Position numbers and translations under genes: made by a program
Shown: in pieces, positions 58,054-60,849 of the stretch
Position numbering within the stretch: the stretch's first letter is position 1
How the letters are laid out: each line of letters starts with the position of its first letter
Notes under the pieces: generated by a model
What the model saw: only the letters and a program-made list of their open reading frames with translations
Told to the model about the DNA's origin: nothing
Database searches by the model: none
Source: a virus
Taxonomy: Duplodnaviria > Heunggongvirae > Uroviricota > Caudoviricetes
IMG/VR virus record: IMGVR_UViG_3300005535_000017
Location: 146,331-210,330 of that record
Reading direction: 5' to 3' (one strand)
DNA length: 64,000 bases

Positions 58054-60849
58054 TTACGCTTGCGTCGGAGGCAGGGACTTGTTCTGGACCGTGCCGTTCG
58101 GAGAGACCAGATCGGCAGCCTTGCCGACCACGCCCTCGATGATGCCCTTGAGCGGGGTGTTGGCGAAGACCTTCTGGATGAACTCGACGCCGTTTTCCGC
58201 ACCGAACATCTGGTGGAAGGACATCGAGCGGGCGACCTGGATGAGCGTCTCCCGAGCGCCGGTGGAGCTGAGAGCTTCGATGAGACCCGGCTGGATGGCG
58301 CCGAGCTGCTTGACGATCGAGTCGACCTGAACGCCCAGGTAGTAGGCCTGGCGCTCGTAGGCCGCCTTCTCCTGCGCCCCGACCGCATCGTTGCTCTTCA
58401 TGGTGCGGGCGAGCTCGGAGGAGTGCTTCAAGTCCTCGAGAGCATTGAGGATGGCCTGAAGCTCTTGCTTCTCCTCGTTCTTCTCCTTCTCGGCGTCGAG
58501 CTTCTTGAGCTCGAGGGAGAGGAGATTGCCCACCTTGACTTGCTCGAGCTCCAGCTTGCGAGCCTCGGTCGCTGCCACCGCCTCCGCAGCCAGGCGGTCG
58601 ATCTCCTGACTACGCTTGGTGACCTCGAGCTCCTTCTCCTTCAGGCTGAGGGTGATGTTGTGCTGGACGATGCTGTGCTGCGAGTTGGCGAGGAGCCCGG
58701 CGATCGCCGGATTGGCGATCTGAACCAGGAGAACCTCCACATCCGTGACCCGCATGCCGTTCTCCGCGAAGAAGAGACCGGGGCGATGTGTCGTGTCACC
58801 CTCCTTCGCCGGCGCCGGCTTGACACCGAGGATGCGATCGCGGATGAAGGCGGTCGAGTTGCCGTAGAACTCCTCGACCGTCAGCTTCCGCACCTCGCCC
58901 TTGAGGATCGAGCGGATGTGGTCGCAGAAGTGCTTGACGTAGTTCTCGATCGTGAACCACTTCGATGCGTCGCCCTCGAAGTTGACGTTGTACGAGAGCT
59001 TCGCCGTCACCTTGACGTGGTCCTTGGTCTCCAGGTCATCGATGATGTCCGTGACCTTGTTGTTGTGCGTGTTGAGATAGACGGTCTCGTAGAGCTTGTC
59101 GGTGTTCTTCGGCTTGCCCGTCGAGAGCCGCAGGATGTCCAGCGTGTCACTGAACTCCATGAGGATCGTCTTCGGCCCGACCACGGCCTCGCGACGGCCG
59201 TCGGCCTTGATGACGTTGACCGCGTAGCCCGGCTGAACCTTGATCGTCGGAACGCCACGCTTCTGCGCCCCGAGGATAATGGTGCGGGGCTCGTGGTAGG
59301 TCGACTTGCGCTCGGCGACGTCGGCCACAACTGCCTGCTGGTCCTTGCCCTGCCGGCTCTCCGCCATCGAGCTGCTGCGGGCCCGAGCCGACTTCATGCC
59401 GCCTCGTTCGGCGGCGGCTCCGACGAAGGCCTCGGGGCTGGAGTTGGCGTAGTTCAGGAGGGCCATCGTCTCCGGGCCGATCCCGCGCTCGAGCTGCCCC
59501 TGAGAGACGACACCCTGCCGCGTGGTGGGAGCATTACCAGCCTCCGTACGCAGCTTGGCGTTCAGCTCGGCAGCCTCGCGGCCCGAGCCATCGGCGCCCG
59601 GGAACCAGGTTCGAGCTTCACGGTCCGAGAGAGGCCGAAGGACGATCGTCTCCTTCACCGGGTCGGGCAGCAGCATCTGCGGGCCCTTCTCCAGCTTGAC
59701 GTAGCCGGTGGCGCGCTCGAGCACATACTTGGCCTCGCCCTCGGTGACCGCCACGGCGTAGTGGATCGACTTGCCGTCGTACCGGACGAGCTGGTGGCCC
59801 TCCTCCGGGTAGTAGATCGGCATCTTGTCGCCCTTGATGAACTTCTCGTCACCAGCCTTGTACGCCTCCTTGCTGCCGTCGGCGTAGTGAAGCTCGCCAT
59901 CTTTGGCGAACTTGAGCTGGATGCCCTGGAGCGAGTTGATCTCGATCGCCTTGTACTTGCGAGCGGGGAGGCCGTCGTCATCCAGGATGGGGGTGCCGTC
60001 CGGCTTGCGCGCGATGAGGAACTCCTGCGTCGGGCGCGGGAACACCACCGCCGGACCACGAGGATACTCCTTGTTGCCGTCTTCATCGACCAGGATCGAG
60101 TACTCGTTGAGACCGAGCGTCTCGGCCTGGCGAACGAAGATGTCTTTGCCGTCGGGGCCCAGCCCTTCCGGCACGACCGAAACGCCGGTCGGCGGGATGT
60201 AGAAGGCGACCTTGGTGCCGAGGATGTTGTACTGCTTGCCCACGGCCAGATCGGCCGGCACGGCGTCGGTGATCGACGGAGTGGTGTCCTTCTTGGGCTC
60301 GGCCTTGGGAGTCTCGGTGGTCGCCGGCTTGCCATCGGCACCGGTCTGAGCGGTTGCGGTCTCGGCGGTCTTGATGACGGCCTTCGACCAGTTCTCGATG
60401 GCGCGACCTTCGTTGTAGATCTTGATGCGGAGGTATTCGTTCGAGCGGAGATGGTGACCGCGGCGAACCTCGCACATCTGGCCGGGGAAGAGGGCGAAGC
60501 TGACGGGCCCTGGGATGTTCTCCTTGAGGCCGATCGCCAGATCGGGAGTCGACTGGGTCTGGCCTTCACCGGGGTAAATCAGCTTGCCCGATGACTTGTC
60601 CTTGGCCGGATTGGTGAGAACGGCGTAGAAGCCTTCCGGCACCACCACATTCTGCGAGAGCGCGGCCTCGAGCGAAGCGCACTCGTCGAAGGTGAAGGTC
60701 TTGGTGTTGAACTTGACCGGACGATCCTGACCTGTCTGGTTGATGACGGTCGGACCCACGAAGAGCTTCACCACGCCCTTGGTGGAGTCGAGGATGTAGG
60801 CGTGCGTGCCGGGCGGGAGGGGCAGTTCACGTTTGCGTTCGTCGGCCAT
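58054..60849 (-). CDS. Major Vault Protein (MVP) homologue, 931 aa
   Basis: N-terminal MVP repeats (PGTHAYILDSTKGVVKLFVGP; VPEGFYAVLTNP; FALFPGQMCE); shoulder VVGPKTILMEFSDTLDILRLSTGKPK...LSYNVNFE...FTIENYVKHFCDHIRSILKGEVRKLTVEEFYGNSTAFIRDRILG; then cap-helix coiled coil. Confidence 0.85.
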   Translation of the reverse strand: MADERKRELPLPPGTHAYILDSTKGVVKLFVGPTVINQTGQDRPVKFNTKTFTFDECASLEAALSQNVVVPEGFYAVLTNPAKDKSSGKLIYPGEGQTQSTPDLAIGLKENIPGPVSFALFPGQMCEVRRGHHLRSNEYLRIKIYNEGRAIENWSKAVIKTAETATAQTGADGKPATTETPKAEPKKDTTPSITDAVPADLAVGKQYNILGTKVAFYIPPTGVSVVPEGLGPDGKDIFVRQAETLGLNEYSILVDEDGNKEYPRGPAVVFPRPTQEFLIARKPDGTPILDDDGLPARKYKAIEINSLQGIQLKFAKDGELHYADGSKEAYKAGDEKFIKGDKMPIYYPEEGHQLVRYDGKSIHYAVAVTEGEAKYVLERATGYVKLEKGPQMLLPDPVKETIVLRPLSDREARTWFPGADGSGREAAELNAKLRTEAGNAPTTRQGVVSQGQLERGIGPETMALLNYANSSPEAFVGAAAERGGMKSARARSSSMAESRQGKDQQAVVADVAERKSTYHEPRTIILGAQKRGVPTIKVQPGYAVNVIKADGRREAVVGPKTILMEFSDTLDILRLSTGKPKNTDKLYETVYLNTHNNKVTDIIDDLETKDHVKVTAKLSYNVNFEGDASKWFTIENYVKHFCDHIRSILKGEVRKLTVEEFYGNSTAFIRDRILGVKPAPAKEGDTTHRPGLFFAENGMRVTDVEVLLVQIANPAIAGLLANSQHSIVQHNITLSLKEKELEVTKRSQEIDRLAAEAVAATEARKLELEQVKVGNLLSLELKKLDAEKEKNEEKQELQAILNALEDLKHSSELARTMKSNDAVGAQEKAAYERQAYYLGVQVDSIVKQLGAIQPGLIEALSSTGARETLIQVARSMSFHQMFGAENGVEFIQKVFANTPLKGIIEGVVGKAADLVSPNGTVQNKSLPPTQA

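What the first reader, a model, noticed from the sequence alone, without database searches (positions are those of the whole stretch)
58054..60849. Full-length Major Vault Protein homologue in a phage-like genome
The 931-aa product matches MVP across its whole architecture. N-terminal repeat domains show the signatures P-x-Y-x-hVLD...vGP and FPLYPGE-like. The shoulder domain matches almost residue for residue (VVGPKTILMEFSDTLDILRLSTGKPK / LSYNVNFE / FTIENYVKHF...VEEFYGNSTAFIRDRILG versus vertebrate [27 protein letters not shown] / LAYNWHFE / FSVPDFVGD...FDDFHKNSARIIRTAVFG). A cap-helix coiled coil follows. MVP builds the eukaryotic vault particle. Prokaryotic homologues are rare, and to my knowledge none has been characterised in a virus. 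The gene has its own promoter box and terminator and shares the transcript with a 2H phosphoesterase.
Basis: partly seen in the sequence, partly recalled or inferred. Interest (0 to 1): 0.95.

Follow-up and report, generated by a model that had tools for sequence, protein, structure and literature searches.

The report
Vault-shell protein gene in jumbo phage
An uncultured phage with a genome of about 210 kb carries a complete copy of the protein that builds the mysterious "vault" particles of animal cells; such phage copies are already reported but untested, and here the gene sits beside RNA-end-repair and ADP-ribose enzymes that hint at its job.

Summary

The window is phage: rIIA/rIIB, 43 tRNAs, and relatives on ~210-kb contigs or next to terminase and portal genes.

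The novelty claims are overstated. Phage MVPs were described in silico in 2023. I found 242 IMG/VR contigs and three GenBank huge phages with MVP, and 446 bacterial genomes (mostly Myxococcota).

Three things appear to be new:
- A separate phage clade in which MVP always follows a small 2H phosphoesterase, as a unit ending in a strong terminator.
- MVP and WGR-type PARP genes share phage contigs more often than chance (one lies 7 kb away here).
- An MVP-WGR fusion exists.

Most likely it forms a soluble vault-like cage in infected cells, tied to NAD+/ADP-ribose or RNA-end chemistry. Assembly and function are inferred.

The parts
58054..60849 (-). MVP homologue gene, 931 aa, including the stop codon
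   Evidence: ORF. Pfam MVP_shoulder 83.6 bits. PDB profile hits are MVP only, E=1e-38. Foldseek to vault chains E=7e-33.
59770..60828 (-). N-terminal beta-repeat array, aa 8-360 (R1-R7 equivalent)
60271..60360 (-). Insert A, aa 164-193: low-complexity T/A/P/K-rich loop
   Evidence: pLDDT 42-44. Variable and often absent in relatives: identity 0.18, occupancy 0.53.
59260..59769 (-). R8-equivalent repeat, aa 361-530, holding the ~120-aa insert B (aa 406-530; helical or disordered) with the conserved PTTRQGVVS motif
   Evidence: aa ~362-395 align to rat MVP ~395-408 within R8. Low pLDDT at 467-529. Motif identity 0.88 in the clade; the insert is partly shared by all prokaryotic and phage MVPs.
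59062..59259 (-). R9-equivalent repeat, aa 531-596, with the 'LSTGKPK' keyhole-loop motif
   Evidence: Pfam Vault_3 at aa 555-586, sub-threshold here but matched in 49/49 relatives at E<=0.01. Aligned to human MVP 453-520. S576, G578, P580 and K581 are invariant or nearly so.
58717..59061 (-). Shoulder (SPFH-like) domain, aa 597-711
   Evidence: PF11978 E=1.4e-23. pLDDT ~90.
58297..58710 (-). Cap-helix, aa 714-851: one uninterrupted helix of 138 residues
   Evidence: DSSP on the model. Aligned to rat MVP up to residue 792. 30% charged, rich in L/A/E/K.
58057..58296 (-). C-terminal region, aa 852-931: short helices, possible cap-ring equivalent
   Evidence: Low to moderate pLDDT. Identity 0.51 within the clade. 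The equivalence to the cap-ring is not established.
58015..58050 (-). Intrinsic terminator directly after the MVP stop codon
   Evidence: 15-bp hairpin, -27.3 kcal/mol, z=-4.76, 0/200 shuffles as stable, followed by UUUUCUU. The consensus scan missed it.
60853..61290 (-). 2H-type phosphoesterase, 145 aa, co-transcribed partner; its stop codon is 3 nt before the MVP ATG
   Evidence: Two invariant HxT motifs: H34-x-T36 and H84-I-T86-x-S88. phrog_36523 is matched by the window, L169, L170 and L171 copies. Pfam tRNA_lig_CPD is sub-threshold here (16.6 bits) but on record for L169 and L170. It is always directly upstream of MVP in the clade.
61296..61303 (-). GAGATAAG motif 5 nt upstream of the 2H start codon: candidate phage-specific promoter element
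   Evidence: 15 copies in the window against 1.6 expected. Contexts show a composite 'TTCTTAGCT'-like box plus GAGATAAG ahead of an RBS and ATG. Its function is untested.
49789..51213 (-). WGR + regulatory + catalytic PARP, 474 aa, 7 kb downstream on the same strand: possible functional associate
   Evidence: Pfam PARP E=2.4e-33, WGR 1.3e-14, PARP_reg 7.8e-11. PARP1-like, E=1.8e-34, with the H-Y-E triad. Syntenic in L001 and L002.
51513..54746 (-). rIIB (51513-52652) and rIIA (52665-54746): phage hallmark genes (context)
   Evidence: PHROGs rIIA E=3.7e-96, rIIB E=2.1e-60. rIIA matches 2,914 phage records.
55861..57953 (-). Downstream operon (context): SpoU-type methyltransferase (57414-57953), metallophosphoesterase (56819-57421), ThyX (55861-56817)
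   Evidence: Pfam and PHROGs. The metallophosphoesterase recurs near MVP in 13 of 85 viral loci and in 0 of 80 bacterial loci.

Best explanation
The gene encodes a phage-borne, full-length, prokaryote-type Major Vault Protein.

Shown:
- It has the complete MVP domain order: nine beta repeats with an expanded R8, an SPFH-like shoulder, a helix of about 138 residues, and a C-terminal tail.
- It has no membrane anchor.
- It belongs to a distinct clade found only in phage-like contigs.
- It forms a two-gene unit with a small 2H phosphoesterase. A recurrent phage motif lies upstream of that unit and a strong intrinsic terminator lies downstream.
- It sits in an accessory region, not a virion module, of a jumbo phage of about 210 kb. 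Neighbours are rIIA/rIIB, ThyX, a SpoU methylase, a metallophosphoesterase, a ligase with a 3'-phosphoesterase domain, and a PARP1-like enzyme that appears catalytically complete.

Inferred:
- Like eukaryotic MVP, which self-assembles without other factors, the protein multimerises through its shoulder and cap helix into a soluble vault-like cage in the cytoplasm of the infected cell.
- The cage serves the phage as a compartment or binding platform for NAD+/ADP-ribose or RNA-end chemistry. It might enclose or concentrate enzymes such as the 2H esterase or the PARP, or sequester nucleotides, RNA or host factors. That would protect the infection from host defences that act through NAD+ depletion, ADP-ribose-derived signals or RNA cleavage.

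Rough likelihoods: MVP homologue ~0.97; phage-encoded ~0.95; cage assembly ~0.6; the specific NAD+/ADP-ribose/RNA-end role ~0.3.
For: Identity:
- Pfam shoulder 83.6 bits.
- The family profile hits only MVP in the PDB, E=1e-38.
- Foldseek matches whole vault chains at E=7e-33 to 2e-25 and the R1-R7 crystals at ~3e-14.
- The repeats are as conserved as the shoulder.
- No hydrophobic segment: maximum Kyte-Doolittle score 1.47, no 19-residue window above 1.6.

Phage origin:
- rIIA/rIIB and 43 tRNAs.
- Near-identical protein on a 210,361-bp contig; 70%-identical relatives on 207-210 kb contigs with conserved synteny.
- Clade member L170 has terminase and portal within 10 kb.
- The clade is separate from bacterial MVPs in a neighbour-joining tree. 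The best bacterial identity is 44%.

Transcription unit:
- 3-nt gap between the 2H and MVP genes and a terminator.
- The 2H gene is upstream of MVP in every clade context examined.

Functional association:
- PARP lies within 10 kb of MVP in the window lineage and in three other lineages: L004 (LR756500), L012 and L016.
- 5 of the top 80 IMG/VR MVP contigs are also among the top 80 of only 130 PARP contigs. P ranges from 3e-16 to 9e-3 depending on the assumed universe size.
- An MVP with an N-terminal WGR domain exists (P0037, 27.7 bits against a cut-off of 22).
- Macro, NADAR, NUDIX, RNA ligase, kinase and phosphoesterase genes recur near phage MVPs but are found near 0 of 80 bacterial MVPs.
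- From the literature: human MVP binds NAD+/ADP-ribose in its shoulder and houses PARP4 and the NADase TEP1 (PMC12280208; bioRxiv 10.64898/2026.05.01.722283).
Against: - No experiment and no multimer model. Assembly is inferred from homology only.
- pLDDT is low in insert B and the C-terminus.
- No neighbour is universal across phage MVP loci.
- Deeper members of the window's own clade (L169-L171) have no PARP within 10 kb.
- The PARP co-occurrence statistic is not corrected for shared ancestry or genome size. Large phages accumulate NAD+/RNA-repair genes in any case (PMC7824862).
- Of the human NAD+-pocket residues, only the G-K-P-K core maps to conserved residues here. R507, H509, R511, F522 and W545 are replaced.
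- The phage PARP is PARP1-like. The vault-binding MINT domain of PARP4 is not among its three Pfam-detected domains.
- No vault RNA or Y RNA and no TROVE protein was found.
- The 2H protein has no detectable solved relative, so its substrate is unknown.
Confidence: 0.55

Rival explanations
1. It acts as an SPFH-type scaffold, like flotillin, HflK/C or stomatin. On this reading it forms an open ring or dome on the host membrane or on a host protease, for example to modulate lysis timing or proteolysis, rather than a closed soluble vault.
For: - 12 of 49 relatives also touch Pfam Band_7.
- rIIA/rIIB, which in T4 are lysis-inhibition and exclusion genes (established knowledge), lie nearby.
- Flotillin-like genes occur near MVP in 7 other phage loci.
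Against: - No transmembrane or hydrophobic anchor.
- About 530 residues of MVP-specific beta repeats, conserved as strongly as the shoulder. SPFH scaffolds lack these, and in vaults they build the barrel wall.
- MVP is the far better match at every level.
Confidence: 0.15
2. It is a storage or 'auxiliary metabolic' cage: a bulk reservoir for amino acids or nucleotides that boosts phage yield. This has been proposed for bacterial and gut-phage MVPs.
For: - Proposed in the literature (Santos et al. 2023; Sokolskyi 2019).
- The gene sits among nucleotide-metabolism genes: ThyX and adenylosuccinate synthetase; ribonucleotide reductase and dCTP deaminase in L169.
Against: - No direct evidence exists for such a role in any organism.
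- The conserved partner is a 2H phosphoesterase, not a biosynthetic enzyme.
- A short lytic cycle gives little time for build-and-degrade storage (inference).
Confidence: 0.1
3. It is a virion or assembly component, for example an internal head protein, a scaffold or a decoration protein, packaged with or around the capsid.
For: - In L170 the MVP gene lies about 6 kb from the terminase and portal genes.
- MVP shells are capsid-like self-assembling containers (literature).
Against: - In the window and its closest relatives the gene lies in an accessory block: rIIA/B, nucleotide and RNA enzymes.
- It shares its upstream motif class with clusters of small non-structural genes.
- A vault 40 x 70 nm in size (PMC3762200 abstract) is comparable in scale to a phage head, so it could not readily be packed inside one (inference).
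- No PHROG structural family matches it.
Confidence: 0.1
4. The gene is not really phage-borne or not functional. It could be a recent host-derived passenger gene, or the window could be bacterial or mis-assembled sequence.
For: - Close cellular homologues exist in Myxococcota.
- Metagenomic bins can be chimeric.
- No capsid gene lies within the window itself.
Against: - The same gene order (2H-MVP-ThyX-rIIA-rIIB-PARP) occurs in independent assemblies.
- A 33-member clade at 48-70% identity keeps the full-length ORF and its partner gene.
- The best bacterial identity is only 44%.
- rIIA/B, 43 tRNAs and dense small genes mark the window as phage.
- GC and codon-position bias match the neighbouring genes.
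Confidence: 0.03

Closest known systems
Eukaryotic Major Vault Protein (rat/human vault shell; PDB 4V60, 7PKZ, 9BW5, 9Z4W)
   Same: - Same domain order: beta repeats, SPFH-like shoulder, long cap helix, C-terminal tail.
- Pfam shoulder hit of 83.6 bits.
- Conserved 'LS-x-G-[KR]-P-K' keyhole loop.
- Whole-chain Foldseek hits at E=7e-33.
- R1-R7 matched separately.
- Soluble, with no membrane anchor.
   Different: - Only 15-18% identity in the structural alignments.
- R8 carries an insert of about 120 aa with its own conserved motif, and there is an extra low-complexity loop.
- Most NAD+-pocket residues are not conserved.
- No TEP1 and no vault RNA.
- The nearby PARP is WGR/PARP1-like, not PARP4.
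- Assembly state is unknown.
Bacterial MVP homologues (Myxococcota, Cytophagales, cyanobacteria; Daly 2013 PMC3762200; Sokolskyi 2019 bioRxiv 10.1101/872010)
   Same: Collinear over the full length at 38-44% identity, including insert B. Function is likewise unknown.
   Different: - Chromosomal: contigs up to 2.9 Mb, sometimes with two paralogues.
- None of the phage-type neighbours (PARP, NADAR, macro, 2H, metallophosphoesterase, DUF2828) lies within 10 kb in 80 loci.
- The window's clade branches separately.
Previously reported phage MVPs (Caudoviricetes ctOa11 and ct2Ri15; Santos et al. 2023, bioRxiv 10.1101/2023.11.10.566534) and the unannotated huge phages LR756500/LR756501/LR756503
   Same: A full-length MVP encoded by tailed phages, outside the structural gene cluster, related to bacterial rather than eukaryotic MVPs.
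   Different: - Those were two human-gut phages with MVPs averaging 811.5 aa, and no vPARP or TEP1 was found in them.
- This one is 931 aa, from a jumbo phage of about 210 kb and 58% GC. It is only 35-36% identical to the huge-phage copies.
- It belongs to a clade with a fixed 2H partner and has a PARP 7 kb away.
SPFH/Band-7 cage proteins (HflK/C, flotillin, stomatin, prohibitin, erlin)
   Different: These are membrane-anchored and lack the nine beta repeats. The match covers only the C-terminal third of this protein and is much weaker than the match to MVP.

Membership tests
Major Vault Protein (MVP) family | MVP shoulder (SPFH-like) domain, Pfam PF11978 | tested here: met
   E=1.4e-23, 83.6 bits against a cut-off of 25, aa 596-711 covering 115 of 118 profile positions. 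Matched by 49/49 relatives.
Major Vault Protein (MVP) family | N-terminal array of MVP beta-repeat domains (R1-R9) | tested here: met
Major Vault Protein (MVP) family | Long cap-helix immediately after the shoulder | tested here: met
   Single predicted helix, aa 714-851. The profile alignment runs through rat MVP residues 647-792.
Major Vault Protein (MVP) family | Cap-ring / C-terminal closure | tested here: inconclusive
   aa 852-931 form short helices with pLDDT of 33-65. No significant alignment to the eukaryotic C-terminus was obtained.
Major Vault Protein (MVP) family | Self-assembly into a 39-fold half-vault or 78-mer barrel | not testable with these tools
   Only single-chain prediction was available. 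This needs multimer modelling or expression followed by EM.
Vault ribonucleoprotein (the complete eukaryotic particle) | Associated vault RNA and the TROVE protein TEP1 | tested here: not met
   Rfam finds only tRNAs in the window. No TROVE hit among the window proteins scanned. A DUF2828/DUF7788 protein sits next to MVP in another phage clade but shows no sequence link to Ro60/TROVE structures.
Vault ribonucleoprotein (the complete eukaryotic particle) | Resident PARP (PARP4, bound through its MINT domain) | tested here: inconclusive
   A PARP gene lies 7 kb away and co-occurs with MVP in phages above chance. It is WGR/PARP1-like, and no interaction domain or physical association could be tested.
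SPFH/Band-7 membrane scaffolds | N-terminal membrane anchor or hairpin, with SPFH as the main globular domain | tested here: not met
   No 19-residue window reaches Kyte-Doolittle 1.6; the maximum is 1.47. About 600 residues of repeats precede the SPFH-like domain.
Phage-encoded (viral) MVPs | Encoded in a tailed-phage genome rather than a cellular chromosome | tested here: met
   rIIA/rIIB; 43 tRNAs; ~210-kb contigs; terminase and portal beside a clade member's MVP. No capsid gene lies within the 64-kb window itself.
2H phosphoesterase superfamily (the upstream partner gene) | Two H-x-T/S-x motifs | tested here: met
   H34-M-T36 and H84-I-T86-L-S88 are invariant in 5 family members.
2H phosphoesterase superfamily (the upstream partner gene) | Significant profile or fold match to a characterised 2H enzyme (CPDase, LigT, Acb1 and so on) | tested here: inconclusive
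   Pfam tRNA_lig_CPD scores 16.6 bits against a cut-off of 23 for the window copy, although hits are on record for the L169 and L170 copies. No PDB sequence hit with either the single sequence or the profile. The single-sequence model has pLDDT 42 and is unusable.

The most novel reading that the evidence does not exclude
Large phages carry a functional 'vault plus PARP' module. On this reading the phage MVP forms a cage that recruits or organises a WGR-type poly(ADP-ribose) polymerase, with accessory ADP-ribose or RNA-end enzymes such as the 2H esterase, to run NAD+/ADP-ribose chemistry in a protected compartment during infection.

That would make the long-unexplained eukaryotic pairing of the vault with PARP4 and NAD+ an ancient association rooted in conflict between viruses and hosts. 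It would also offer a bacterial or phage system in which vault function can be dissected.
Probability: 0.15. Interest if true: 0.9.

Novelty: new member of a known kind. Interest (0 to 1): 0.6.

Why it matters
The function of the vault has been an open question since its discovery. It is one of the largest ribonucleoprotein particles in eukaryotic cells (abstracts).

- **A long-lived phage lineage.** A jumbo-phage lineage has kept a complete MVP under selection, always paired with a 2H phosphoesterase. Phage MVPs also share genomes with PARPs more often than chance, and one is fused to a WGR domain. These give concrete, testable hints that the shell is tied to NAD+/ADP-ribose or RNA-end chemistry, echoing recent findings on human vaults (NAD+/ADP-ribose pocket, PARP4, the TEP1 NADase).
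- **An overlooked feature of large phages.** MVP appears in hundreds of viral contigs but is not mentioned in the two jumbo-phage reviews I checked.
- **A possible source of new cages.** Phage MVPs could supply new self-assembling protein cages for bioengineering.

The caveat is that the phage is uncultured and everything about assembly and function is inferred.

Tried and rejected
- **Sigma-70 promoter scan of 57300-61500:** none found. The same tool also missed the real terminator, which I confirmed by reading the sequence and folding it.
- **PHROGs for the MVP:** no family matched.
- **Rfam for vault RNA or Y RNA:** only tRNAs.
- **TROVE/TEP1 analogue:** the DUF2828+DUF7788 protein next to MVP in another phage clade looked promising, but a family profile found no Ro60/TROVE structure (best E=0.4, unrelated). 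I leave it open rather than count it as support.
- **Acb1 (anti-CBASS 2H nuclease) identity for the partner gene:** no PDB hit with the sequence or the family profile. A homologue search returned only one cluster. The single-sequence AlphaFold model was unusable at pLDDT 42.5, so no fold search was run on it.
- **AFDB50 fold search:** the library was unavailable.
- **NAD+-pocket conservation:** mapping the human residues through the HMMER alignment shows that only the G-K-P-K core is kept. Nucleotide binding cannot be claimed from sequence.
- **A universal conserved neighbour of phage MVPs:** unbiased clustering of all ORFs within +-10 kb in 86 loci found none. The most frequent was a metallophosphoesterase, in 14 loci counting the window.
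- **PARP adjacency as a clade-wide rule:** rejected. L169-L171 lack a PARP within 10 kb.
- **'Bacterial contaminant' reading:** rejected on the grounds given under the rival explanations.

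
Full report
**1. The observation**

An AAGGAG ribosome-binding site lies 9 nt upstream. Its codon-position GC pattern (0.63/0.40/0.87) matches the neighbouring genes. An identical 931-aa protein is already present in public metagenomes (P0001).

**2. Is it an MVP across its whole length?**

Yes, on four lines of evidence.

- Pfam finds the MVP shoulder domain at 83.6 bits against a cut-off of 25 (aa 596-711). 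It also finds a sub-threshold Vault_3 repeat at aa 555-586.
- phmmer against all solved structures returns only MVP (E~3e-16). A profile built from 49 homologues raises this to E=1e-38 and extends the alignment through the rat cap helix. A weaker stretch aligns within repeats R6-R8.
- An AlphaFold2 model (mean pLDDT 75) has five parts:
  - a beta-rich N-terminal region (aa 8-405);
  - a low-confidence insertion (about aa 406-530);
  - another beta repeat (aa 531-596);
  - an alpha/beta shoulder (aa 597-711);
  - one uninterrupted helix of 138 residues (aa 714-851).

That test fails, so the claim stands. The protein has no hydrophobic anchor. Its repeats are as conserved as its shoulder (0.69 against 0.64 identity within the clade).

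It differs from eukaryotic MVP in three ways:
- a variable T/A/P/K-rich loop (aa 164-193);
- an insert of about 120 residues inside the R8-equivalent, with a nearly invariant PTTRQGVVS motif, partly shared by all prokaryotic and phage MVPs;
- a poorly modelled C-terminus.

**3. Is the genome a phage?**

Yes.
- The window holds rIIA and rIIB (PHROGs E=3.7e-96 and 2.1e-60). rIIA matches 2,914 phage records, all at 35% identity or less.
- It has an array of 43 tRNA genes and about 100 densely packed, mostly small genes.
- Near-identical MVPs sit on a 210,361-bp contig. The 70%-identical relatives sit on 207-210 kb contigs with the same gene order.
- A 53%-identical clade member has terminase and portal genes within 10 kb of its MVP.

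No capsid gene lies in the window itself, and no cultured relative exists.

**4. The transcription unit**

The gene upstream (60853-61290) ends 3 nt before the MVP start codon. It has the two invariant HxT motifs of 2H phosphoesterases. The copies from the window, L169, L170 and L171 all match phrog_36523. A homologous small gene directly precedes MVP in every clade context examined: L001, L002, L169, L170 and L171. L006 also has a tblastn match to it.

Directly after the MVP stop codon lies a 15-bp GC-rich hairpin (-27.3 kcal/mol, z=-4.8) followed by UUUUCUU. The consensus scanner missed this terminator and found no sigma-70 promoter.

A motif, GAGATAAG, occurs 15 times in the window against 1.6 expected. 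It is usually preceded by a TTCTTAGCT-like box and followed by an RBS and ATG. One copy sits 5 nt upstream of the 2H start codon, and a similar element follows the MVP terminator. The unit therefore reads: motif, 2H, MVP, terminator. Promoter function is untested.

**5. How common are such genes?**

- The word-indexed search found 2,407 relatives. JGI names many of them 'major vault protein'.
- The exhaustive search found 1,080 clusters at 50% identity among 1.84 billion, of which 561 score E<=1e-30.
- 446 species-representative bacterial genomes encode one. The best matches are Myxococcota at 38-44% identity, on chromosomal contigs up to 2.9 Mb.
- IMG/VR holds 242 viral contigs with a full-length relative. 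Of the best 80 contigs, 49 are at least 100 kb long.
- The GenBank huge phages LR756500, LR756501 and LR756503 carry unannotated copies at 35-36% identity.
- A 2023 preprint already reported 'the first viral MVPs' in two gut phages, in silico only. Earlier work described bacterial MVPs.

On the other side:
- Two jumbo-phage reviews do not mention vaults at all.
- BFVD holds no phage MVP. Its only full-length-like hit is a Harvfovirus protein.
- I found no experimental study of a bacterial or phage vault.

In a neighbour-joining tree the window's protein belongs to a 33-member clade made up only of metagenomic and viral sequences. That clade is separated from the mixed bacterial and viral remainder.

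**6. Clues to function**

The gene lies in an accessory block. The block holds a SpoU methyltransferase, a metallophosphoesterase, ThyX, a Zn-ribbon membrane protein, rIIA, rIIB and then a 474-aa PARP. On the other side are a DNA ligase with a LigD 3'-phosphoesterase domain and an adenylosuccinate synthetase.

The PARP has WGR, regulatory and catalytic domains. It is PARP1-like (E=1.8e-34) and keeps the H-Y-E triad.

A PARP also lies within 10 kb of MVP in three other lineages:
- LR756500, which in addition has macro, RNA-ligase, HD-kinase and ATP-grasp genes nearby;
- L012;
- L016.

IMG/VR has only 130 PARP-bearing contigs. Five of the top 80 MVP contigs are among the top 80 PARP contigs, against 0.002-1.3 expected (P=3e-16 to 9e-3, depending on the assumed universe size). 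One phage-like MVP (P0037) carries an N-terminal WGR domain that passes Pfam's threshold.

Other phage MVP loci carry NADAR, NUDIX, flotillin, kinase and phosphoesterase genes. None of these was found near 80 bacterial MVP genes.

Against over-reading this:
- No neighbour is universal.
- Deeper members of the window's own clade lack a nearby PARP.
- The statistic is not corrected for phylogeny or genome size.
- Large phages accumulate NAD+ and RNA-repair genes in any case.
- The human NAD+-pocket residues are mostly not conserved here.

**7. Best explanation and rivals**

Most likely the protein self-assembles into a soluble vault-like cage in the infected cell. Eukaryotic MVP does this without other factors, which is established knowledge. 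The cage would serve as a compartment or binding platform linked to NAD+/ADP-ribose or RNA-end chemistry and would work with its 2H partner. Identity and phage origin are shown. Assembly (~0.6) and function (~0.3) are inferred.

The rivals are an open SPFH-type scaffold, a storage cage, a virion component, and a passenger or contaminant gene. Each is less well supported, for the reasons given under the rival explanations.

**8. Verdict**

This is a real, full-length, phage-encoded MVP. It is a new member of a kind already reported in silico but never studied experimentally.

Three findings were not reported in any paper I found, and I consider them moderately to highly interesting:
- the distinct jumbo-phage clade with a fixed 2H partner;
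- the above-chance MVP-PARP co-occurrence;
- the MVP-WGR fusion.

All three rest on metagenomic inference.

Noticed in passing
window 38217-47560 (+): An array of 43 tRNA genes by ARAGORN, of which 36 pass the Rfam threshold. It covers nearly all amino acids and includes unusual calls: tRNA-Ile(tat) of 92 nt, tRNA-Tyr(ata), and duplicated His, Met and Leu(aag). This is a very large complement even for a jumbo phage.
   Followed up: partly
window 508-17002 mostly (-), plus 30730, 40959 and 61296: GAGATAAG occurs 15 times against 1.6 expected. It is typically preceded by a hairpin and a TTCTTAGCT-like box, and followed 10-25 nt later by GGAGG and ATG. It is probably a phage-specific promoter class shared by the small-gene clusters and the 2H-MVP unit.
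   Followed up: partly
window 49789-51213 (-): A complete PARP1-like enzyme (WGR + helical regulatory + catalytic domains, H-Y-E triad intact) encoded by a phage. Its relatives at 51-69% identity are on IMG/VR contigs of 106-205 kb (L172-L175).
   Followed up: yes
window 61327-62760 (+): An ATP-dependent DNA ligase fused to an N-terminal LigD-type 3'-phosphoesterase domain, transcribed divergently from the 2H-MVP unit with only 36 bp between the two start codons.
   Followed up: no
window 62757-63914 (-): An adenylosuccinate synthetase homologue (Pfam E=1.5e-41) in a phage genome. Its first residue aligns to profile position 66 of the Pfam model, so it may be N-terminally short.
   Followed up: no
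window 54755-55840 (-): A 361-aa protein with an N-terminal RanBP-type zinc ribbon, one strong transmembrane segment (aa ~132-150) and a Cys/Tyr-rich C-terminal half. It is conserved in L001 and L002 between ThyX and rIIA, and no family matched it.
   Followed up: no
L056, L058, L059, L060, L073, L085 (directly upstream of MVP); L076 (3.2 kb downstream): In a different, low-GC phage MVP clade, a ~515-aa DUF2828+DUF7788 protein (vWA/MIDAS-like motif) sits about 0.5-1.3 kb upstream of MVP in six loci. In four of them (L056, L058-L060) a NADAR gene lies 354 bp downstream, with a calcineurin-like phosphatase, a kinase and a flotillin-like SPFH gene nearby. A TROVE/TEP1-like role was considered, but no sequence link to Ro60 structures was found.
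   Followed up: partly
P0037 / L166:10001-13288 (also L167, L168): A 1,095-aa MVP with an N-terminal WGR domain (aa 106-172) in phage-like contigs. SpoU methylase, AAA_33 kinase, HAD phosphatase and RlaP genes lie downstream.
   Followed up: partly
L004 (LR756500.1 8000-40000): In this 462-kb huge phage, MVP lies in a block with macro-domain, DFP flavoprotein, HD+kinase, RNA ligase, AAA ATPase, R2K ATP-grasp and PARP-catalytic genes. The GenBank record has no annotation at all.
   Followed up: partly
BFVD entry A0A3G5A4K1 (Harvfovirus sp.): A giant-virus 'prohibitin domain-containing protein' of 802 aa aligns over the whole MVP model (E=1.2e-12). MVP-like proteins may therefore also exist in Nucleocytoviricota.
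   Followed up: no
L001 versus L002 and the window: Two contigs from the same JGI sample carry the same MVP but differ nearby. In L001 rIIB is 619 aa and the PARP is 376 aa without WGR. In L002 and the window they are about 380 aa and 474-478 aa with WGR. This could be strain variation, or a frameshift or assembly difference.
   Followed up: no
L099/L108, L103/L120, L091/L115 and others (bacterial MAGs): Several Myxococcota genomes carry two MVP paralogues on different contigs.
   Followed up: no
window 22291-23193 (-): A 300-aa phage protein whose only recognisable feature is a C-terminal DnaJ (J) domain.
   Followed up: no
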